Origin: a virus
Lineage: Duplodnaviria > Heunggongvirae > Uroviricota > Caudoviricetes
DNA: 33,277 bases
Virus record (IMG/VR): IMGVR_UViG_2778261295_000004
Strand: one strand, 5' to 3'
Shown: piece by piece, positions 4,748 to 33,277 of the stretch
How positions within the stretch are numbered: the stretch's first letter is position 1
How the letters are laid out: each line of letters begins with the position of its first letter
The notes under the pieces: model-generated
Told to the model about the DNA's origin: nothing
The model's input: only the letters and a program-made list of their open reading frames with translations
The model's database searches: none
Position numbers and translations under genes: made by a program

Positions 4748-7700
4748 GCGTCGTATCCCCCCTGATCGCTGTAGTTACTCCTGGCTTTTGCCTTCAGCCT
4801 GCGTTCACGTTCATCAAGCTGGCGGGCCACCTCCCGCGCAATATCCTGCGCACTTTGTCCTGGCTGTGTCTGGATGATGATCTGCGTCGGTGCCTCAATC
4901 CTGTAAACGGGCGGCACAGTGGCTGCACGACTCACAATTGCTTCTCCACCTTTCGCGGGAAGTGCCAAAGGGTGCAACGGTGGAAGCTCTGCTGGCGCGG
5001 CAGCAACGCCCATCATTCCGGCAACAACGGCAGCCAGTGCAGCTGTATTTCTCCGGCTGATCACATTTGCCGGGCCGTTAACAATTTCCGGCCCGTTTTC
5101 ACCGACGATGCCAAACTGCCCGCGCGGGATATACCCGCCGCTGTCATACATCCCCGCAAAGCCATATCCCCATGACGGGAAACCACCCGATGGCATCATC
5201 ACTTTACCGTCTGCATTCACCGTCGCAGGTTGCTGACGCGTCACGCTTTCCGGCAGTTTTGCCTTTGCGGCCTCTTTACTGACAATGCCGAGCTTCTCCA
5301 GCAACCAAGAAACGCCGGATTTCAGGGAGTCCAGCGGATGCATGACCATATTCAGCCCTTCCGCCAGTGCCTCTCCGAATCGCCGCCCCATTGCCGCTGC
5401 ACTCTGCAGTTCGGCAGAGGTCGACTTAACGGGCGTCAGCAGATCAGTAAACCAGCCCCACAGCGCCTGTACTTTGTCGCCAATCCACTGGAACACGGGC
5501 TTAAGCGGTTTGAATGCTGCACTGACGGGACCTGCCGCCGCTTTGAATCCTTCCACCACGCCACCAAGAAATGCGGTGATGGGTTGCCAGTATTTCCAGA
5601 CAACCAGCGCCAAGCCCGCCAGTGCAGTAACCACAAGACCTATCGGACTGAGCAGAGCACCTAACAGACCAGATATGGCATACAGGGCAACGCGCAGCAT
5701 CGCCAGTGGACCAGATGCCAGTACTCGCAGCACCGTGCCTGCGGCGGCCAGTCCACCGCGCAGTACCGCCAGAGGATTCATAAACATCACAGCAACAGCA
5801 CGTAAACCGGATAATCCAGACCGCAAAAGTGCAACCGGCGCACCTGCTACAGTTTTCAGGACATTTCCCGTCAGTGATGCCGTGCGGCGCAAAGACGACA
5901 ACGGCGCAGTAAGTAAACCTGCGGCGTTGCCCGATGAAGCAAGCCCGCGTCGCAGCAGTGCCAGTGGTGCGCCAGCCAGCCAGGACAACGCGCTGCTGGT
6001 TCGAGTTACTGCTGCCGTAACGGAAGGTAACGTTTTGATACCCAGCACAGATAATCCCAGACGGATCACTGCCAGCAGCCCCAGCACTGCAGCCAGCGCC
6101 ACCGCTAAGGTGCCGAGGCCTACGGTAACCGCAGCCACCACAGCGGCTACTTTCATCAGTGTGCCTGTCAGTTCCGGGTTAGCTTCCACCCAGCGGCGCA
6201 ACGCCCCCGTGATGCTTTTCACCGTGTACAGAATATCCATCAGCGGCTGGCGCAGCGTTTCGCCCAGGCTGCTGAAGGTGTTCTGCGCTCCGGTTTTGAC
6301 CAGCAACCACTGAGCAGAAAGTGAGTCTTTGTTGATGTCGGATTCTTTCTGCATGGAACCGAGCGCATCATTGCCCGCAGTCAGTTTTAGCTGGCGCTGC
6401 AGTTCCGGCAGGTTGTTTGCCAGTTTCGCCGCGTCATCGCCAAACTCTTTACCAAACAACATGGTCATGGCAGACAGGCGCTTATCCTGCGGCAGTGCGT
6501 TCACCTTCTCCAGCACACGCTGGATAGTTCCCATCGCATCCTTCGTCATCTGCTTTTCAATCACTTCAGGATTGAGCTTCAGCAGATTCATTCCTTCAAA
6601 GAAACTCTTGCTTTGCATGGTGGCAATGGACAATTCACGCACCATCGCGTTTGCTGCACTGGCTGCAACCTCTGGCGCAGCACCCAGTGTCAGGAAGGTG
6701 GAACCCAGCGCCGCCGCTTTACGATAATCCAGACGGTCAGCCACACCGCCCAGGCGTTGCATGACATCAATGATGTCCGCCCCTTTCGACATGGCGTTAT
6801 CATCCAGATAGTTCAGCGCATCACCGAGCTGTTCAATATTGCGGGTAGGTATTTTGTAGAGCTGGGCGATTTTCCCCAGACTTTCTGACAGTTCATCCGC
6901 TGGCAGCTCAAAGGCTGTTGCCGCCTTTGCCGCCGTGCTGGCGAAGGCCAGCAGGTCACGTTTCTGGTCTTCCCAGCTGTCGTCAGGGTTTGCGACGTTC
7001 ATGCGCGCCCCACCTTCAACCAGTGCGGCGAAGTCCACAGCACCGTTTTCCATCGGCAACTGTTCGCTGGCAGCCTTGATGGCATCCTGCATTTCATAAA
7101 AACGCGCAGTGCGATTGCCATTATCGCCACGCAGACCATTGACCTGCTTTGCCACACCTTTCATGGCATCTTCCATGCTGGTATAGCTTTTTACTGCCGC
7201 CATCACTGGTGCGCCCATTGCCAGCCCTGCAGCCGTGGTGGTGGCTCCGGCACCTGCAATCCGATCCCTTACTTCAAGACGCCTGGCGTAAGCCCCCCGG
7301 GCGGCGTGCATTTTTCGCTGTTGCTCCCCGACACGTCGTAACCTCGCTTCCTGCTCAGAAAGCTGCCTGTTATAACGCATCGTTTCACGGGTAATGCGGG
7401 CCGTCGCACTGGCGCCATCATTAGCTGAAATACCAGCACGATAAAGTTCTGCACGCACAAGCGCCGTCTGCTGCTGCAGCTTTTTCTGGCGTTCTTCCAG
7501 GCGCTGAACAGCCAGCCGTTGACGGCCCAGAGCAACAACCTGACGTTGCGAAGGCGGCCCCATCGCTCCCAGTTCCTGACTGAGCAAATTTGCACGCTGG
7601 CGGGCATAGTTCAGCCTGTCGCCTAATTTCTGATTTTCTGCCTGCAGCTTTCGGAAGCTGTCCAGACTGCTCCCGGCCTGATCAAGCTGCTTTATTGCAT

Positions 7701-23550: not shown

Positions 23551-24249
23551 TTATTTGTTTCTTCTTTGTTCACGCCTTGTCTTGGCTTCGATAAGGCGTT
23601 GAGGTTCAGTGTAAAGCCGTTCTAAAAAAAGATAGGTAAAATCTTCAAGATCCTCAGCAGCAGCTTTATCCAAAATACCTTCATGCGCGCCATCATTTCC
23701 GTCATCTTTAACGCATTCAGCTAGTTCCCTTAAAGCTTCAGGCAATAGATGATTATCAAATAACCAATCCATTCTTAACCCTAGGCTTCTCCTTATTTTT
23801 TGCGCAGGCCCTTGCTCCCCATCAGGAAGAAGTCCTTTTGTTGCATAATCAAGGCAAAGCCTAAACATGGTTGCTGCTGCATTATAACAACCAATAGCCA
23901 AACATTTCGCCCCTTCCTCATATGCACTATTGATATGCTCAGGTAAGAACTCTGGCGGCTCCTCTACTGCTAAGTCTGCCGGTGATATAGGCCTAACAAC
24001 CTCTGCAACTTCCTTTAAGCCGAATATTCCACTTTCCCAATTATAGCCATCTAAAGTTTTATTTTTCGTTAAAGGTCTGCAAAGAAACATTGTCGTTTTA
24101 TGACACTCTCGGCAAACACAATAGACCTCGTATTCGTATGTTTTACCCCCGCCCAATGCATTGTAAACCCTAGTGCAATTCAGCCCATTAACATCAAACG
24201 CTATTTTTTGTGATCCACATCGTGGACAGTCATCCACTAACATAACCAT
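23551..24249 (-). CDS. Cargo protein: N-terminal zinc ribbon plus C-terminal DUF4145/HEPN-like domain (candidate abortive-infection or defence effector)
   Basis: 232-aa ORF with strong GGGAGGAG Shine-Dalgarno; Cys motifs CPRC and CVCREC near the N-terminus; C-terminal ...LRELAECVKDDGNDGAHEG... resembles the GN-x-x-AH core of DUF4145 as I recall it; AT-rich compared with flanking phage genes. Confidence 0.55.
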   Translation of the reverse strand: MVMLVDDCPRCGSQKIAFDVNGLNCTRVYNALGGGKTYEYEVYCVCRECHKTTMFLCRPLTKNKTLDGYNWESGIFGLKEVAEVVRPISPADLAVEEPPEFLPEHINSAYEEGAKCLAIGCYNAAATMFRLCLDYATKGLLPDGEQGPAQKIRRSLGLRMDWLFDNHLLPEALRELAECVKDDGNDGAHEGILDKAAAEDLEDFTYLFLERLYTEPQRLIEAKTRREQRRNK

Positions 24250-24359
24250 GTCAATTGCTCCTCCCTATGAAAAAAATGAGTTGAAAAATTGAATATTCAC
24301 GACTTAAAAAGCTAGCCTATTTAACACCATAATTTCATTAATTCAACCATGAGCGCGCG

Positions 24360-24378
24360 CTCGTATCCCCGCCACGCC
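24360..24378 (-). other. Candidate cos cohesive-end core
   Basis: Minus strand reads GGCGTGGCGGGGATACGAG, matching in its first 13 nt my recollection of the 19-nt P2/186 cohesive end (GGCG(A/T)GGCGGGGAAAGCA...); adjacent perfect palindrome GAGCGCGCGCTC at 24351-24362. Confidence 0.4.
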
Positions 24379-24427
24379 TGCCCGCTTTGTGTAGTGGTTT
24401 TCATGCAGGTGCCTGATCCACGCAAAA

Positions 24428-24450
24428 GCCCGCCAGTTCTGGCGGGCCTT
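24428..24450 (-). terminator. Intrinsic terminator downstream of the 372-aa cargo gene
   Basis: gcccgccag / ctggcgggc stem followed on the minus strand by TTTTG; lies about 65 bp past the stop of the 24514..25632 gene. Confidence 0.5.
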
Positions 24451-24513
24451 AGCAAAAACGATCCTCAAACGGTCATGCAAATTCAGGCAGCATAGGCATG
24501 CACTGTTGTTAGG

Positions 24514-25632
24514 TTAGTTCGTAATGCCAATTTCCTTCAAAACTTTAGCCATTTCCGTCTGACTTAACTTGTTCCTGAACAAAGGGAAATTTTTCATTTT
24601 TTCCGCTCGTTGCCCTTTTGAAATAGTAATCTTTCCTGATGCTGATAACTCAGAGTCAAAAAAATAACATATTGTTGAATTTGAATTCTCCATATTTGAC
24701 TTGATACAATTCCATATGCTTTCTTTTTTCATTTCACACATTCTAGGACCAAAAATGATCCCTTTAACAACATTAGCATCATGATGAAAAATATGTCCAA
24801 TATTTCGATTTACGCGTCTTTGAACATGCCGCTCACTCCCTATTCCTGCATTTGCCTCTGGAATAAACATTCGATATTCAGCTTCATATCTCCAAAATCT
24901 ATTTTTAGTTAAAAATAACTCTGCAACATTTGCGCTTGGGTCTAGAAGTGAAACCTCTTTAGCCTGATTACTATATTTTATTTGCTTAACTGGAAAATTA
25001 AATTTATCTGATGAAAATAAATTTTCTCTTAGCTTCATTCCAGGATGTGGCACGCCATTAATATTAAAATCCTGCGTTTCATAAATCACAACACAACCAC
25101 TAAAGCCTGCAGCATAATGCGCCCACATCATACGATCTAACGCATTAGCTGAAAATGACACACTGAATACTGCAGGAACTATTTTCCTATACAACCTTTC
25201 TTTGATACTGTTCTCGCAAAGTGAGACCAAAAATTGGCGTGGTTCAGGAATATTCCCATAAATAGCGGAATTAATCACATTGATAGGTAGTAAACCATCA
25301 TTTATGATCTTACGTATCTCATCAACGTGTGAGTCAAACAGGCTATCTAATGACTCAATGCTACTTTTTATTTTTTTTCCTCTAAAAATACGATTCAATC
25401 CCTTATGTATCTTCAAATTACTCAAATCTAATATGTGACTCAAATTTTCATAGGATTTATCGCAAGGAGAACGCAATAAAATATCCCATAATTTCAATTT
25501 ATTATCAAAACGATAATCTATATTGAGATCATTAGGATCATTCAATTGCGCAGGAGCGGAAAAATATAATTCATTATAACGAATAGCTTTCTCGAAGAAG
25601 AAGTCCGGACGGTAATACTTGAAAAGATACAT
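24514..25632 (-). CDS. Cargo protein with DUF2971-like N-terminus (candidate anti-phage or abortive-infection protein, function unknown)
   Basis: 372-aa ORF, ATG start; N-terminal LFKYYRPDFFFEKAIRYNELYFSAPAQLNDPND resembles the DUF2971 signature as I recall it; strongly AT-rich and Asn/Lys/Ile/Phe-rich unlike the phage backbone. Confidence 0.55.
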   Translation of the reverse strand: MYLFKYYRPDFFFEKAIRYNELYFSAPAQLNDPNDLNIDYRFDNKLKLWDILLRSPCDKSYENLSHILDLSNLKIHKGLNRIFRGKKIKSSIESLDSLFDSHVDEIRKIINDGLLPINVINSAIYGNIPEPRQFLVSLCENSIKERLYRKIVPAVFSVSFSANALDRMMWAHYAAGFSGCVVIYETQDFNINGVPHPGMKLRENLFSSDKFNFPVKQIKYSNQAKEVSLLDPSANVAELFLTKNRFWRYEAEYRMFIPEANAGIGSERHVQRRVNRNIGHIFHHDANVVKGIIFGPRMCEMKKESIWNCIKSNMENSNSTICYFFDSELSASGKITISKGQRAEKMKNFPLFRNKLSQTEMAKVLKEIGITN

Positions 25633-26137
25633 GACATTACCTATAACATTGCAATATTAACAACCGTATGAAAACGGTTTGATTGTATTGATAATATCCT
25701 ATTCTGCATATACCACAGTGTAAAGATTAATTTTAAATACCATATCCAACAGTAAATCATGTATCGACCGCCAGATAAGAAGCTTTTGAAAAACTTGGAC
25801 AATAATTAATCAAAAGGTAAGAGATACTCTTCAAATACATGACGTTGGCTTCCTCTTTCGTGATAACTATCAAGACCAAGTCCATTAGATAATGGACATC
25901 AAATATTCCAAGTCAATCCAAGAACAATCATCATAAGCTCTTCCCATCCTGTATCCTCTATCTCACTCTTTTGGACATTGAAAGAAGCCCCTCTGACCGG
26001 GAATGATTGTTTCCAGCGTTTGACCACGATATACAATATGATATTTGATGTCTTTTGATCAGATGGCTAACGCCTCGCACAGCTCGTTGTTCAACCTTGC
26101 TGACGCCAGAAGCAAGTTCAGACGCCAGCAACGTTTC

Positions 26138-26371
26138 TTAATGCAGCCAGCTGTCGTCTTCCCACACCTTCTGCATAATTTTCATCACTTGTTTTCTTTC
26201 TTCGTCCAGTTGCAGTCCGGTCAGTTCCACACCGTTAGAGCTACCTTTGCGGATACGAATTACCGTTTTGGGATACAGGGGGCGCAGATTGCGGTAAAGC
26301 TCGGATTCAAGGGCGTCCAGGGTAGACTGGCTAATTTTCTGCTCTTTATCGATCATTATTTCAATGCGCAT
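26138..26371 (-). CDS. DinI-like SOS-response protein
   Basis: Start refined to internal ATG (MRIEIMIDKEQ...) with GAGGTG upstream; N-terminal MRIE... and C-terminal acidic W-containing tail resemble E. coli DinI. Confidence 0.8.
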   Translation of the reverse strand: MRIEIMIDKEQKISQSTLDALESELYRNLRPLYPKTVIRIRKGSSNGVELTGLQLDEERKQVMKIMQKVWEDDSWLH

Positions 26372-26381
26372 AAAAGTCACC

Positions 26382-26570
26382 TCAGCTGATGACATCCATT
26401 GAGCGGTTGTATTCGTGGCTTCTGATTTTTGCCATGAGTTCATCAGTCAATTCAGAAACCCACTGCAGAGCCAGCCCCTTCTCTTCATCACTACACTCAC
26501 TAGCCGCTACAAGCTTAAGAAAAAAATCAATGCGCTGGAGCTTCAAAGACTCCAAAAAATAGTCCTGCAT
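26382..26570 (-). CDS. Small protein (62 aa), first gene of the LexA-box operon; possible Tum-like antirepressor
   Basis: Internal ATG preceded by a perfect AGGAGG; the upstream part of the table ORF (to 26672) contains the LexA box and so is unlikely to be coding. Confidence 0.5.
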   Translation of the reverse strand: MQDYFLESLKLQRIDFFLKLVAASECSDEEKGLALQWVSELTDELMAKIRSHEYNRSMDVIS

Positions 26571-26611
26571 TTTTCCTCCTATGACACCACAAGCAATACT
26601 GTACACATAAC

Positions 26612-26631
26612 CACTGTTTATATTTACAGTA
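26612..26631. promoter_or_regulatory. LexA box (SOS operator)
   Basis: cactgtttatatttacagta fits the CTGT-N8-ACAG consensus with an AT-rich spacer; lies about 40 bp upstream of the small ORF start. Confidence 0.65.
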
Positions 26632-26723
26632 TATAATAATCTTACTGATGTAAAACGTTTTTTTACGTTCATCAGCCTGATATGCCTGGTATTATTAAGA
26701 GCACGAATTGTTAACCCGCGTAA

Positions 26724-29102
26724 TTAATACAGATCCCGCCACTTATCATCTTCCTGCAAACGCTGGTTCCGATAGAAGATACGCAGGCCTGCTCCTGACG
26801 GAATACTGCCGCCGCGAAGGAGTAAATCGACCTCTTTCTCGCTGCCATCAAATCCTCTGGACTTCAGTTCATAGACGAGCTGCTGTCGTTGATGGTCTGT
26901 AATTCGCTGTTTGTAGTCTCTACGCCGTTTCGGTTTCACCAGGCGTAACCTTGCAGCCAGTTCCCGGCGTTCTTTTTTGTTCATACTGTGCAGGTAATCG
27001 TGCAACTCCTTGTCATCCATACGGGTGATATCCGTTCTGGTATCCCCATCAGCTGATTTGTCTTTCCCTTGTTGGTACAAATTTTCAGCAAGGGGACAGT
27101 TATTGCCACGAGTCCGAGTCCAAGGGGCGCAAGCGCCCTGGTCGGCTGCCGCCTCCTGAACATCAACGGCCTTACGAACCATTTTCCACTTCACGGCATG
27201 AGTGCAGATCTTGCCCTCTGCAATAGGTGACCAGATGCCATAAATACGAATGCCGTGATCGCCATAGGCGGTCGGCTCTTCGTTGATTTCATAAGCGGTT
27301 CTGATGAGGTGATATTTGCGGGGAACCAGTACGCCGCCCTGCTTCATGATGTAGGTGGCAAAACAACCAGCATCAGCAGCAGCCAGGATGGCATCAAGGC
27401 GCGGGTTATCCAGTACCGGCGCACCTGCTTTTTTGTCCCCCTGTTGCCTTGCCGCCTGACCAGCCAGCAATCGCAGTTCACGGTAAGCCTGACGCCCCGG
27501 AATGCCAAAGAAGCGGAATTGCTGAACACGATGCAGAGACGCCCAGGCATTAACGTATTCAGCATTATCACGCAGGGATTTCCCCGTTTCCTTGCTGATC
27601 TCGCCAGCCAGACCACGCCCGTCAATGTTCTTACTGATGTATTTCGCGATGTAGCTTGTTGGCGTACCTTTGCGCGGGTTAATCAACTCAGACTTAAAGC
27701 GCGGCCCAGTGTTATTGCCCAGTTCCTCGCGGTCTTCACGGATGGCAAACTTACGCAGTAATGCAGTGATGGCGCGGCGGTCTTTTTTGCGCATAAAACA
27801 CAACAGGTGCCAGTGAACTGTACCGTCATGATGCGGCTCAGCCACCCGCACGCCATACCACCGCAATCCGGCTTTGTGCATCGCCTTACGAAATGCAGCA
27901 AACATGCCGACCAGATAATCACTGCTTTGTCTTACCGTCGCATTTGTCCAAGTTGGGTTGGGCCTGCCATTATTTAGCGTGGAATGGAAACGTGACGGAC
28001 AGGTGATGGTGTAGAAAACGGCGCAGTCACCGCGCATTTCCGCGATAAGCTCCAGGCCTTTAACACAGGCCATCATCTCATTGCGGCGATGCGCAGGGTT
28101 GCTGCTGCTGGCGTTTACCACATCCTCCATGTCCAGCGTGTCGCCGTCTTCGTTCACCAGTTCATGAGAACGAAAAAACTCCAGCGACTTACGGCGCTGC
28201 TCACGTTTATGCATCACGGCTTCATAGCTGACATAGGGAGATGCTTTTTTGCTGACCAGGCAGACAGCACGCAACTGCTCTTCCCGCCATTCGCAACGCA
28301 TCTTCCATAATTTCCGGTACCACCAGTCAGCGCACAACATACGCGCCAGCGAACCCGGAATGAGTTCATAGGGCACGGGTTTACGGCGGTTTCTTTTCCG
28401 GCGGAGTTGCTCAAACGCAGGCGGGATGACATCCAGACGCAGGGTTTCCGCTGCCACCTTTTCCCATGTCTTGCGGATTTCTTCTGGCTTAACGTCATCG
28501 GTGACATACAAATCGCCACAAGCTGCATCAAGGCACATGCTCATATGCGCAGCTACCAGGGTGGACAGGCGTTTCACCTGATCCTGACTCATTTCAGGCA
28601 GGATCAGCAGGCCGTCCAGCCCTTCATGGCTTGCCATAAAGCGAAAAGAAGTGGATAGCTGACAGTCGCGTACATGCTCCAGCCGTTCCAGACATGGCTT
28701 AATCGTCTCACGCAAATAGCGGGAATAAGCCTTTGGCCTGCCCAGGCTGCTGAAGTATTCAATACGTTGCATCAGTGGCTTGCTGATATGGGAAGGCTGG
28801 GCATTAACGTCCGCCAGAATGACCATATCTGGATTAAAACGCTGCTGCTCATGCGCCAGCTTTGCCCGACTAATGAGCTTATCCTGCTCCATTTCGCGCT
28901 GGACAGGATCACGGGATTCATTAAAGAAATAACGCTCCCAGACCTGATCACTCAGTGCCTCGCGGCGCAGCTGTTCCTGCTCGTTATCGGCAGCGTACAG
29001 AGCGATCAGGTTTGAAAGCGCAGAAACTGAAGATTGCTCTTCCGTCTCTACGTAAGGATTGATTGCTTTTTTCTCAGCATTCCAGGAATAGCTGTAGTTC
29101 AT
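26724..29102 (-). CDS. A: Replication initiation protein A (rolling-circle endonuclease)
   Basis: Large ORF containing ...[18 protein letters not shown]... and ...[12 protein letters not shown]... motifs typical of P2 gpA-family initiators. Start placed at ATG 29102 (GGAGA upstream, TAATG overlap with the upstream gene); table ORF extends to 29153. Confidence 0.9.
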
Positions 29103-29932
29103 TACGCAATCTCCAGTTCGAGCTGTGAAGGCTGCAAACCATTCGACAGCCAATCAGAAACTGAAGGTGGGCGAACAGCTTCAATTGCACCTTTTAAAAT
29201 TGCGCAACGGTTTTTCAGAATGACAGCTTTCAGCTCCTTTTCCGTCAGATTGCGCGAATACTCAGCCTCCTGAATAGCCCGCGTCAGCTCAGGATATTTG
29301 CTATTAAATTTGGGGACATTGCAGGCAAGATTTGTACTGTCGGCAGTCGCCAGTGGGTAATTTCCCAACACACGACCGTCAAGCATGCGCAAACCATGAA
29401 CAGCTGTTTTGAAATTGTGTCGGCAATAAATTGCTTCAAAAGCGTCCTGCATACGACGATGCCAGTGCGCAGTTCTGATAGCCGCATATTCACCAGACGA
29501 TCCAAAGCAGACACGAGGCCATTCACGACATAGCTCGATAAGCCGATCGATTGACTCGTGCAGATGCCAGACGGGAGTTGCCTTCCCGTAGAACATTTTC
29601 GGAACTTCGTTTATCAGGGCATCATTGTCACGTTCACCTCCGTCCACAACATCAGGAATGACAAAAAAAGCGACCTTAGGATGGTGGTAATAGTTCAGGA
29701 GCCATTTATAAAAATCACTCCAGTTAATTTTTAGCCCACGCACCCATGCAGAAAATGCGCCGTTATCAATGCCGACGACCTGAGCGTGCTGAATGGACGC
29801 CGCAATCTGATCTGGTCGTACATAGGAGACGAAAGCGCCAGCTCCGCTCACCGCAATACGATGAACGTCGCCAGCACTTCCCCAGACAGGCGTCCCATGG
29901 AAATGATGAATTCCGTGGTGCATTTCTTTCAC
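29102..29932 (-). CDS. Hypothetical protein between dam and A
   Basis: 276-aa ORF, GTG start overlapping the dam stop (alternative ATG at 29923); translationally coupled on both sides. Confidence 0.5.
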
Positions 29933-32710: not shown

Positions 32711-33277
32711 ATGGATTTTAGTCAAGGTGGAAAGAAAGCTATCGAAAGGATGGTTGAAGCCTATGGGTTCACTACAAGACAGGCGTTATGTGAACAACTA
32801 GGCATATCAAAAAGCAGTCTTGCTACACGCTACATGAGAGATTCATTCCCTTCTGATTGGGTTATTCAGTGCGCGCTCGAAACAGGAGTAAACATAAAGT
32901 GGCTGGTAACAGGCTTACCTCCTAAACATGAATATTTAACGTCTGACATCATCAATATTCAAAAAATAAAATTGATTGATGGAGTGCTATTGGATGCAGG
33001 AACACTAATGTTTGACAAAGTGTTCATTCCTGATGGTTTATCATCACCATCTGTGATATCAAACGGGAATAACTCTTATTTTATTGAGAGGGATTTCACA
33101 GATGTAGTTGATGGTGATTGGTTAATCTCCATTGATGGAAAGCATTCTATAAAACAAGTTATTAGAATTCCTGATAATAAAGTTAAGATTAACTATGGGA
33201 ATATCATTGTTGATATGAACATTAATGACCTTGTATTCATCGGCAAAGTTATAGCAGAATTCAAGATAAGAGGCTAA
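32711..33277 (+). CDS. cI: Immunity repressor CI (186-type)
   Basis: Start placed at ATG with AAGGTG upstream (table ORF starts at GTG 32606); N-terminal HTH-like segment (TTRQALCEQLGISKSSLATRYMRD), divergent from apl/cox; stop codon is the last three bases of the window. Confidence 0.7.
   Translation: MDFSQGGKKAIERMVEAYGFTTRQALCEQLGISKSSLATRYMRDSFPSDWVIQCALETGVNIKWLVTGLPPKHEYLTSDIINIQKIKLIDGVLLDAGTLMFDKVFIPDGLSSPSVISNGNNSYFIERDFTDVVDGDWLISIDGKHSIKQVIRIPDNKVKINYGNIIVDMNINDLVFIGKVIAEFKIRG

What the first reader, a model, noticed from the sequence alone, without database searches (positions are those of the whole stretch)
26138..26640. LexA-box-controlled operon (small ORF plus dinI-like gene) next to the cargo island: 186-type SOS induction module
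A LexA box (26612-26631) overlaps a putative promoter driving a 62-aa ORF with a perfect AGGAGG and then a dinI-like gene. This mirrors the SOS operon of coliphage 186 (tum antirepressor followed by a DinI-like orf) that makes 186 UV-inducible, unlike P2. The small ORF is much shorter than 186 Tum as I recall it, so it may be a different or minimal antirepressor, which would be worth characterising. Together with the 186-type CI this predicts the prophage is SOS-inducible.
Basis: partly seen in the sequence, partly recalled or inferred. Interest (0 to 1): 0.6.

Follow-up and report, generated by a model that had tools for sequence, protein, structure and literature searches.

The report
LexA-controlled split tum antirepressor operon
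This is the DNA-damage switch of a P2/186-like E. coli prophage: a LexA-repressed promoter drives a small antirepressor gene (tumA) and a DinI-like gene (tumB), an arrangement already described for phages PSP3 and Fels-2 and found in about a fifth of complete E. coli genomes, so it is real but ordinary.

Summary
On the minus strand at 26138-26654 lie a promoter (TTTACA-17-TACTGT), a LexA box, an AGGAGG site, a 62-aa ORF and a 77-aa DinI-family ORF, just downstream of the gpA replication gene.

The interpretation, a 186-type SOS induction module, is right in substance. Its account of 186 is not. In 186 the DinI-like part is the C-terminal half of Tum itself, and the next gene, orf97, is not DinI-like.

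The 62-aa ORF matches the N-terminal half of Tum (profile comparison E=6e-8, residues 5-48 of each). The DinI ORF aligns from Tum V71, the internal GTG start of truncated Tum. The window therefore carries a split tum, which the PSP3 record annotates as tumA/tumB and the literature describes for Fels-2 (TumA 96.8% identical).

Two details go beyond the finding:
- The operator is a double, overlapping LexA site about 86-88% identical to colicin operators. It is conserved in all 11 Fels-2-type phages examined.
- TumA stays 86-100% identical while the partner CI repressors diverge to 20-30% in the C-terminal domain and keep 57-69% in the N-terminal domain. This suggests a broad-specificity antirepressor that docks on the CI N-terminal domain.

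Novelty: already known. Interest: low.

The parts
26649..26654 (-). -35 hexamer TTTACA of the tum promoter (p95 equivalent)
   Evidence: Sequence. TTTACA with a 17-nt spacer is conserved in all 11 Fels-2-type relatives even where the flanks diverge. The layout matches the annotated 186 p95. The generic scan did not call it.
26626..26631 (-). -10 hexamer TACTGT, identical to the first 6 nt of LexA box 1
   Evidence: The 186 record annotates the same hexamer, TACTGT, as the p95 -10, coincident with the start of its LexA site.
26612..26631 (-). LexA box 1, TACTGTAAATATAAACAGTG
   Evidence: Unique in the window. A CTG-N10-CAG box lies at the equivalent position in 186, PSP3, Fels-2, YenM06.16-2 and ESSI-2 and in the other relatives except ST15phi14.1, where box 1 reads ACATTG instead of ACAGTG.
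26597..26616 (-). LexA box 2, CAGTGGTTATGTGTACAGTA. It overlaps box 1 by 5 nt. Its left half is degenerate and its right half is a perfect match.
   Evidence: Conserved in all 11 Fels-2-type phages and absent from 186, PSP3, YenM and ESSI2. The 42 nt at 26595-26636 match 844 plasmids, mostly small Col-type, at 85-88%. The match lies just upstream of the colicin E1 gene of ColE1 and of a colicin-like tRNase gene.
26575..26580 (-). Shine-Dalgarno AGGAGG for tumA
   Evidence: AGGAGG is conserved in the relatives.
26382..26570 (-). tumA: 62-aa homologue of the N-terminal (antirepressor) half of 186 Tum
   Evidence: hhalign of the family profile A1 against 186 Tum gives probability 94.7%, E=6.3e-8, residues 5-48 aligned to 5-48. 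It is 96.8% identical to Fels-2 STM2728. dN/dS is 0.06-0.07 against the four diverged relatives. The AF2 model is a helical hairpin with pLDDT 84.6. The start codon is supported because most family members begin at this Met.
26378..26383 (-). Ribosome-binding site GAGGTG for tumB, overlapping the tumA stop codon TGA
   Evidence: A small hairpin at 26376-26393 spans it.
26138..26371 (-). tumB: 77-aa DinI-family protein, equivalent to the C-terminal half of 186 Tum
   Evidence: Pfam DinI E=6.6e-23. It is 41% identical to Tum 71-145, starting exactly at V71, the annotated internal GTG start of truncated Tum. It matches PHROG 189 at profile positions 71-148 of 151. It resembles PSP3 TumB.
26093..26133 (-). 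GC-rich hairpin just after the tumB stop. It could be a partial terminator or a 3' stabiliser.
   Evidence: An 11-bp stem in a fold of -33.2 kcal/mol, but no U tract and only z=-1.9. Its function is inferred.
32711..33277 (+). cI: 188-aa 186-type immunity repressor, the presumed target of TumA
   Evidence: BLASTP against 186 CI gives 30% identity, E=2e-31. Alignment with 13 relatives is.
26724..29153 (-). gpA-like replication endonuclease gene immediately upstream (context)
   Evidence: It is 96% identical to gpA of 813R9, 4LV2017 and Cartapus and 86% identical to Fels-2 gpA. The order A-tum is the same as in 186, PSP3 and Fels-2.

Best explanation
This is the SOS-induction operon of a Fels-2/186-like (Peduoviridae) prophage, in the split form called tumA-tumB in PSP3.

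In undamaged cells, LexA dimers occupy two overlapping boxes that cover the -10 hexamer and the start region of the promoter, and keep it off. DNA damage activates RecA, LexA cleaves itself and the promoter fires.

TumA is a 62-aa helical hairpin homologous to the N-terminal half of 186 Tum. It is proposed to bind the CI immunity repressor, probably at its conserved N-terminal DNA-binding domain. This would prevent operator binding, derepress the early lytic promoter and induce the prophage.

TumB is the free DinI-like domain. It is proposed to bind RecA filaments and tune the strength or duration of the SOS signal. 186 makes an equivalent free domain from an internal GTG start.

The colicin-type double operator should give very tight repression and late, all-or-none firing, which suits a lethal decision.

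Shown here: the sequence elements, the homologies, the conservation and the selection. Inferred: LexA binding, the TumA-CI interaction and its domain, and the TumB-RecA interaction.
For: - Anatomy verified.
- The LexA box is unique in the window. A box is conserved upstream of tum or tumA in every relative examined.
- TumA family profile against 186 Tum: E=6.3e-8, in register over residues 5-48.
- TumB is DinI family. It aligns from the internal start V71 of 186 Tum.
- The PSP3 record annotates tumA as 'similar to 5' end 186 tum; UV induction of prophage' and tumB as 'similar to dinI and 3' end of 186 tum'.
- PMC3121763 states that Fels-2 and PSP3 have tum split by a stop codon and that the PSP3 upstream gene carries the antirepressor activity.
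- Window TumA is 96.8% identical to the Fels-2 protein.
- 186 Tum is an established LexA-controlled anti-CI factor (PMC7708051).
- TumA-only versions without DinI exist in ESSI-2 and YenM06.16-2. This fits the antirepressor activity lying in the TumA part.
- Both genes are under purifying selection.
- The double operator matches colicin operators, which are known to bind two LexA dimers and give no basal expression (PMC2994835).
- The CI in the window is 186-type.
Against: - No experiment on this or any Fels-2-type TumA protein was accessible. The PSP3 evidence is a GenBank note and a personal communication, and PSP3 TumA is only weakly similar to the window protein (hhalign E=0.004, probability 9%).
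- BLASTP sees no similarity between the 62-aa ORF and Tum. The homology rests on a profile comparison over 44 columns.
- The -10 hexamer is poor (3/6), and the promoter scan did not call the promoter.
- Near-identical TumA proteins sit with CI proteins of only 35-47% identity. This would be odd for a highly specific antirepressor.
- The integrase and the prophage ends lie outside the window, so inducibility of this particular prophage cannot be judged.
Confidence: 0.85

Rival explanations
1. The two ORFs are the remains of a single tum gene broken by a nonsense mutation. On this reading the module is a decaying pseudogene and the prophage is no longer SOS-inducible.
For: [quoted passage not shown]
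Against: The split layout is present in 1125 of 5426 complete E. coli genomes. It also occurs in Salmonella, Klebsiella and Yersinia phages. Both halves have dN/dS of about 0.06 at saturating dS. tumB has its own ribosome-binding site and ATG. The split point coincides with the internal start used in 186. Stand-alone TumA genes exist.
Confidence: 0.02
2. The operon is an SOS-induced accessory (moron) module. TumB/DinI modulates host RecA and the small protein has some other role. Prophage induction would not depend on it.
For: TumA is essentially invariant across phages with very different CI proteins. That is what one would expect if its target were a conserved host factor rather than CI. No direct assay of a Fels-2-type TumA was accessible.
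Against: TumA is homologous to the Tum half that distinguishes the antirepressor from plain DinI. PSP3 tumA is annotated as needed for UV induction. Fels-2 is reported as the cause of lexA-null lethality. TumA identity tracks CI N-terminal-domain identity across 15 phages (Spearman 0.78, against 0.19 for the C-terminal domain), although the pairs are not independent.
Confidence: 0.1
3. The LexA-like site is a chance AT-rich palindrome, and the operon is expressed constitutively or read through from gene A.
For: The region is AT-rich, and the generic scan found no promoter.
Against: No match to the consensus is expected by chance. The box, its 17-nt spacing from TTTACA and the second box are all conserved where the flanking sequence has diverged. 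There is near-identity to colicin LexA operators.
Confidence: 0.03

Closest known systems
tumA-tumB of Salmonella phage PSP3, and STM2728 / STM2726.1 of Fels-2
   Same: The layout is the same: gene A, a LexA-box promoter, a roughly 60-aa tumA and a 77-aa DinI-like tumB. Window TumA is 96.8% and TumB 100% identical to the Fels-2 proteins. The promoter and operator are almost base-for-base the same as in Fels-2.
   Different: PSP3 TumA is highly diverged (about 16% identity, hhalign E=0.004), and PSP3 has a single LexA box. The gene after tumB in Fels-2 (STM2726) is absent from the window, which carries different cargo. The CI in the window is only 35% identical to Fels-2 CI.
The p95-tum-orf97 SOS operon of coliphage 186
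   Same: It occupies the same position downstream of gene A. Its LexA box overlaps a TACTGT -10. The N-terminal half of Tum is homologous to TumA, and the C-terminal half is homologous to TumB. The repressor is a 186-type CI.
   Different: In 186 the two domains are fused in one 146-aa protein, with internal starts giving free C-terminal products. 186 has a single LexA box, and it has orf97, which is absent from the window.
Colicin operon operators (for example ColE1 cea) with two overlapping SOS boxes
   Same: About 40 nt of operator are 85-88% identical, including the CAGTGGTTAT.TGTACAGTA second box and the same 15-nt offset between boxes. Colicin double boxes bind two LexA dimers and suppress basal expression (PMC2994835).
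   Different: They drive a toxin and lysis operon on plasmids, not a phage antirepressor. The -35 and leader regions are unrelated.
The dinI-gfoA / gftA LexA-controlled antirepressor operons of the Gifsy prophages
   Same: These are LexA-repressed operons that pair a DinI homologue with a small antirepressor acting on a non-cleavable repressor, and the antirepressors can act in trans (PMC3121763).
   Different: The gene order is reversed, with dinI first. The phages are lambdoid and have unrelated repressors. No sequence relationship to TumA was tested.

Membership tests
Tum/TumA antirepressor (N-terminal domain of 186 Tum) | Sequence homology to residues 1-70 or so of 186 Tum | tested here: met
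   hhalign of the 29-sequence family profile against 186 Tum: probability 94.7%, E=6.3e-8, residues 5-48 to 5-48. Pairwise BLASTP found nothing. Yersinia phage 'tum protein' sequences bridge both families.
Tum/TumA antirepressor (N-terminal domain of 186 Tum) | The gene lies just downstream of replication gene A and is preceded by a LexA box overlapping its promoter | tested here: met
Tum/TumA antirepressor (N-terminal domain of 186 Tum) | The protein binds CI and prevents operator binding, and is required for UV or mitomycin induction | not testable with these tools
   Only literature on 186 Tum and the annotation and personal communication for PSP3.
DinI family (Pfam PF06183) | Match to the family profile above the curated threshold | tested here: met
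   81.3 bits against a cut-off of 24.2, E=6.6e-23, covering profile positions 1-63 of 63. 186 Tum 72-142 matches the solved E. coli DinI structure 1GHH.
DinI family (Pfam PF06183) | Binds RecA filaments and modulates co-protease activity | not testable with these tools
   Inferred from family membership only.
LexA (SOS) operator of Enterobacteria | A CTGT-N8-ACAG palindrome close to TACTGTATATATATACAGTA, placed over the promoter | tested here: met
   Box 1 matches 17/20 with an intact core, is unique in the window, and overlaps the -10.
LexA (SOS) operator of Enterobacteria | LexA binding and SOS-dependent transcription | not testable with these tools
   Would need EMSA or reporter assays.
Colicin-type double SOS operator | Two overlapping 20-nt boxes offset by 15 nt, the second with a degenerate left half | tested here: met
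   Aligned with ColE1 and a C. koseri colicin-like plasmid. 844 plasmid records match. Conserved in 11 of 11 Fels-2-type phages.
186 SOS operon in the strict sense (tum plus orf97) | A fused 146-aa Tum, and orf97 downstream | tested here: not met
   tum is split here. tblastn finds no orf97 homologue in the window.
186-type CI repressor | Full-length homology to 186 CI (N-terminal HTH domain plus C-terminal oligomerisation domain) | tested here: met
   30% identity over 176 aa, E=2e-31. Alignment.

The most novel reading that the evidence does not exclude
Fels-2-type TumA may be a broad-specificity 'master' antirepressor. It stays 86-100% identical while its partner CI repressors belong to many immunity types (C-terminal domain 20-30% identical). 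It may work by docking on the conserved CI N-terminal domain, around the invariant RD.FP..W.I.C.LETG stretch. If so, one SOS-induced TumA could cross-induce heteroimmune P2-like prophages in the same cell. The colicin-type double LexA operator would then make that decision late and all-or-none.
Probability: 0.35. Interest if true: 0.45.

Novelty: already known. Interest (0 to 1): 0.2.

Why it matters
It matters mainly for annotation. This module decides whether a very common class of E. coli, Salmonella and Klebsiella P2-like prophages responds to DNA damage. It occurs in about 21% of complete E. coli genomes. Yet tumA is labelled 'hypothetical', 'unknown function' or even 'levan regulatory protein' in nearly every record. 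Recognising it as tumA lets these prophages be classed as SOS-inducible, unlike P2.

Two side observations are cheap to test and bear on cross-talk between prophages and on the timing of induction. One is the colicin-type double LexA operator. The other is an almost invariant antirepressor facing highly divergent repressors. Neither changes the basic picture.

Tried and rejected
- BLASTP of the 62-aa ORF against 186 Tum found no alignment. Homology showed up only with a family profile.
- Pfam found no family for the 62-aa ORF.
- The profile search of PDB sequences found nothing.
- Foldseek of the AF2 model against the PDB gave only generic helical hairpins, none with E below 0.5.
- The generic promoter scan did not detect the promoter, because TACTGT matches only 3/6 of TATAAT. 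I relied instead on the layout of the annotated 186 p95 and on conservation.
- Bunny, Liu & Roth 2002 (PMC151935), the primary paper on Fels-2 tum, is not held. Its content is cited second-hand from PMC3121763.
- A literature search for 'TumA/TumB' returned only noise.
- I considered and rejected three alternatives: a broken pseudogene, a chance palindrome, and the longer 96-aa ORF from the ATG at 26672. The 96-aa ORF would start upstream of the -35 and run through the operator, and most family members start at the downstream Met.
- The phmmer search of 1.8 billion representatives found 67 small stand-alone relatives and none clearly fused to DinI. The direction of evolution, fusion or fission, is therefore not resolved.

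Full report
**What is there**

Everything described here reads on the minus strand, just after the stop codon of an 809-aa gpA-like replication gene (26724-29153). The 153-nt intergenic region holds these elements:
- TTTACA at 26649-26654, followed by a 17-nt spacer.
- TACTGT at 26626-26631.
- The 20-nt palindrome TACTGTAAATATAAACAGTG at 26612-26631.
- AGGAGG at 26575-26580.
- An ATG at 26570.

Two ORFs follow.
- The first encodes 62 aa (26382-26570).
- Its TGA stop overlaps a GAGGTG ribosome-binding site. A second ORF of 77 aa follows (26138-26371). It is a clear DinI-family protein (Pfam PF06183, E=6.6e-23).
- A GC-rich hairpin without a U tract follows the second stop.

**Is it more than chance?**

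- The palindrome is the only site in the window within three mismatches of the LexA consensus, with none expected in shuffles.
- A CTG-N10-CAG box sits just upstream of the equivalent gene in 186, PSP3, Fels-2, a Yersinia phage and Cronobacter phage ESSI-2.
- Against four relatives whose synonymous sites are saturated (dS 0.8-1.8), both ORFs show dN/dS of 0.05-0.08. Both are translated, selected genes.
- The longer 96-aa ORF that many gene callers report would begin upstream of the -35 and run through the operator. Most members of the family start at the Met used here.

**What the two genes are**

The annotated 186 record shows that the p95 promoter has the same layout, with TACTGT as the -10 and as the first six bases of the LexA site.
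- 186 tum encodes a 146-aa protein with several internal starts. The last is a GTG at residue 71, which gives a 'truncated Tum' that 'modulates SOS induction'.
- The window's DinI ORF is 41% identical to Tum 71-145, and its Met aligns with that V71.
- In PHROGs it matches profile positions 71-148 of a 151-position family built on Tum-length proteins.

The 62-aa ORF gives no BLASTP alignment to Tum and no Pfam hit. I therefore built a profile.
- A search of 1.8 billion representatives found 67 small relatives. I aligned 29 diverse ones (A1).
- Compared with 186 Tum by hhalign, the profile gives probability 94.7% and E=6.3e-8, with residues 5-48 aligned to Tum 5-48.
- The shared core reads roughly (L/I)(Q/E)R(I/V)..h..+L.A...C...(D/E)+..AL..h.E(L/I).

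The window therefore carries tum split at its domain boundary. It does not carry 'tum followed by a DinI-like orf'. The 186 gene after tum, orf97, has no DinI domain and no homologue in the window.

**This is already known**

- The PSP3 GenBank record annotates tumA ('similar to 5' end 186 tum; UV induction of prophage') and tumB ('similar to dinI and 3' end of 186 tum') in exactly this arrangement.
- Lemire et al. 2011 (PMC3121763) state that Tum looks like an antirepressor fused to DinI and that Fels-2 and PSP3 have the coding region split by a stop codon. They add that in PSP3 the upstream gene carries the antirepressor activity (Christie, personal communication, cited in Bunny et al. 2002).
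- The same passage credits Bunny et al. with showing that lexA null mutations are lethal in Salmonella because of Fels-2.
- Window TumA is 96.8% and TumB 100% identical to the Fels-2 proteins STM2728 and STM2726.1.
- The DNA of the module is 97-100% identical in many E. coli chromosomes and is present in 1125 of 5426 complete E. coli genomes. It is also common in Klebsiella and Salmonella phages.
- Almost everywhere tumA is labelled 'hypothetical protein'. PHROG 698 is listed as 'unknown function'.

**Mechanism**

The best-supported model is the 186 one (PMC7708051).
- LexA represses the promoter, and SOS removes LexA.
- The antirepressor then sequesters CI, and the early lytic promoter fires.
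- The window has a 186-type CI at 32711-33277 (30% identity, E=2e-31), together with cII and a cox/apl-sized ORF beside it.
- TumA is predicted to be a two-helix hairpin (helices 2-23 and 28-61, pLDDT 84.6). It has no informative structural neighbours.
- Stand-alone TumA genes with a LexA box but no DinI gene occur in ESSI-2-type and Yersinia phages. This fits the antirepressor activity lying in TumA, with TumB as an accessory modulator of RecA filaments, as in the DinI family.
- None of the protein interactions can be tested here.

**Two details beyond the finding**

First, the operator is double.
- A second box, CAGTGGTTATGTGTACAGTA (26597-26616), overlaps box 1 by 5 nt.
- The 42 nt at 26595-26636 match 844 plasmids, mostly small mobilizable Col plasmids, at 85-88%.
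- In ColE1 and in a Citrobacter colicin-like plasmid the matching sequence lies just upstream of the colicin gene. It reads TGCTGTATATAAAACCAGTGGTTATATGTACAGTA in ColE1 and TACTGTATATAAAACCAGTGGTTATATGTACAGTA in the Citrobacter plasmid.
- The TTTACA-17-box 1-box 2 arrangement is kept in all 11 Fels-2-type phages examined, even where the flanking sequence has diverged. In one of them, ST15phi14.1, box 1 carries a G-to-T change in its right half (ACATTG). 186, PSP3, the Yersinia phage and ESSI2 have a single box.
- I could not check whether Bunny et al. already noted this.

Second, TumA does not co-vary with CI as a whole.
- Phages with TumA 97-98% identical to the window's have CI proteins only 35-47% identical. 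TumA travels with the gpA block.
- Splitting CI by domain gives a clearer picture. In every Fels-2-type phage the N-terminal DNA-binding domain is 57-69% identical to the window's. It contains an invariant stretch RD.FP..W.I.C.LETG.
- The C-terminal domain is only 20-30% identical.
- Across 15 phages, TumA identity correlates with CI N-terminal-domain identity (Spearman 0.78) but barely with C-terminal-domain identity (0.19).
- The pairs are not independent and linkage confounds the comparison, so this is suggestive only.
- It points to TumA docking on the conserved part of the N-terminal domain, and to possible cross-induction between heteroimmune prophages. That would parallel the trans-acting Gifsy antirepressors.

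**Verdict**

The functional interpretation is essentially right, but its comparison with 186 is inaccurate, and the suggested novelty ('different or minimal antirepressor') dissolves. The ORF is the known TumA half of a split tum. Novelty: already known. Interest: low. The operator architecture and the breadth of TumA specificity are modest, testable side questions.

Noticed in passing
window 23551-25632 (minus strand), with the gene-free stretch 25633-26137: This is the cargo island downstream of tumB. It is low in GC (0.30-0.37, against about 0.54 in gpA). It carries a 372-aa DUF2971 protein that matches the PADLOC candidate defence family PDC-S31 (E=3e-23). It also carries a 232-aa DUF4145 protein with a weak PD-T7-4 match (E=1e-6). 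In relatives the same slot holds other cargo: a retron, a TIR protein, an ATPase with RloB, and STM2726. Whether the tum transcript reads into it is unknown.
   Followed up: partly
window 32711-33277 (+): The CI repressor in the window has no close relative among 50,697 phage records. The best full-length match is 47% identical. One E. coli record matches 62% over the N-terminal third only. Its C-terminal end lacks the SFEC..DDI motif shared by the others. It is probably an undescribed immunity type.
   Followed up: partly
L007 998-1939 (Klebsiella phage 4LV2017) and L020 119-979 (PSP3): The CI proteins of 4LV2017 (about 313 aa) and PSP3 (286 aa) carry two tandem copies of the N-terminal HTH domain ahead of one C-terminal domain.
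   Followed up: no
window 26376-26393 (minus strand): A small hairpin (GTCATCAGCTGAGGTGAC followed by TTTTATG) spans the tumA stop codon and the tumB ribosome-binding site. The scan flagged it as terminator-like. It could make tumB translation depend on ribosomes finishing tumA, or attenuate transcription between the genes.
   Followed up: no
L017 about 7010-7128 (Klebsiella phage ST13-OXA48phi12.1): This relative has a much longer leader between the double LexA operator and the tumA ribosome-binding site. The leader contains repeated GGATATCC / TATGGCAA motifs that the others lack.
   Followed up: no
database records for tumA homologues: Many gene callers extend tumA to 84-106 aa from upstream in-frame starts that run through the promoter and operator. 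Some records name it 'levan regulatory protein'. Both look like annotation artefacts.
   Followed up: partly
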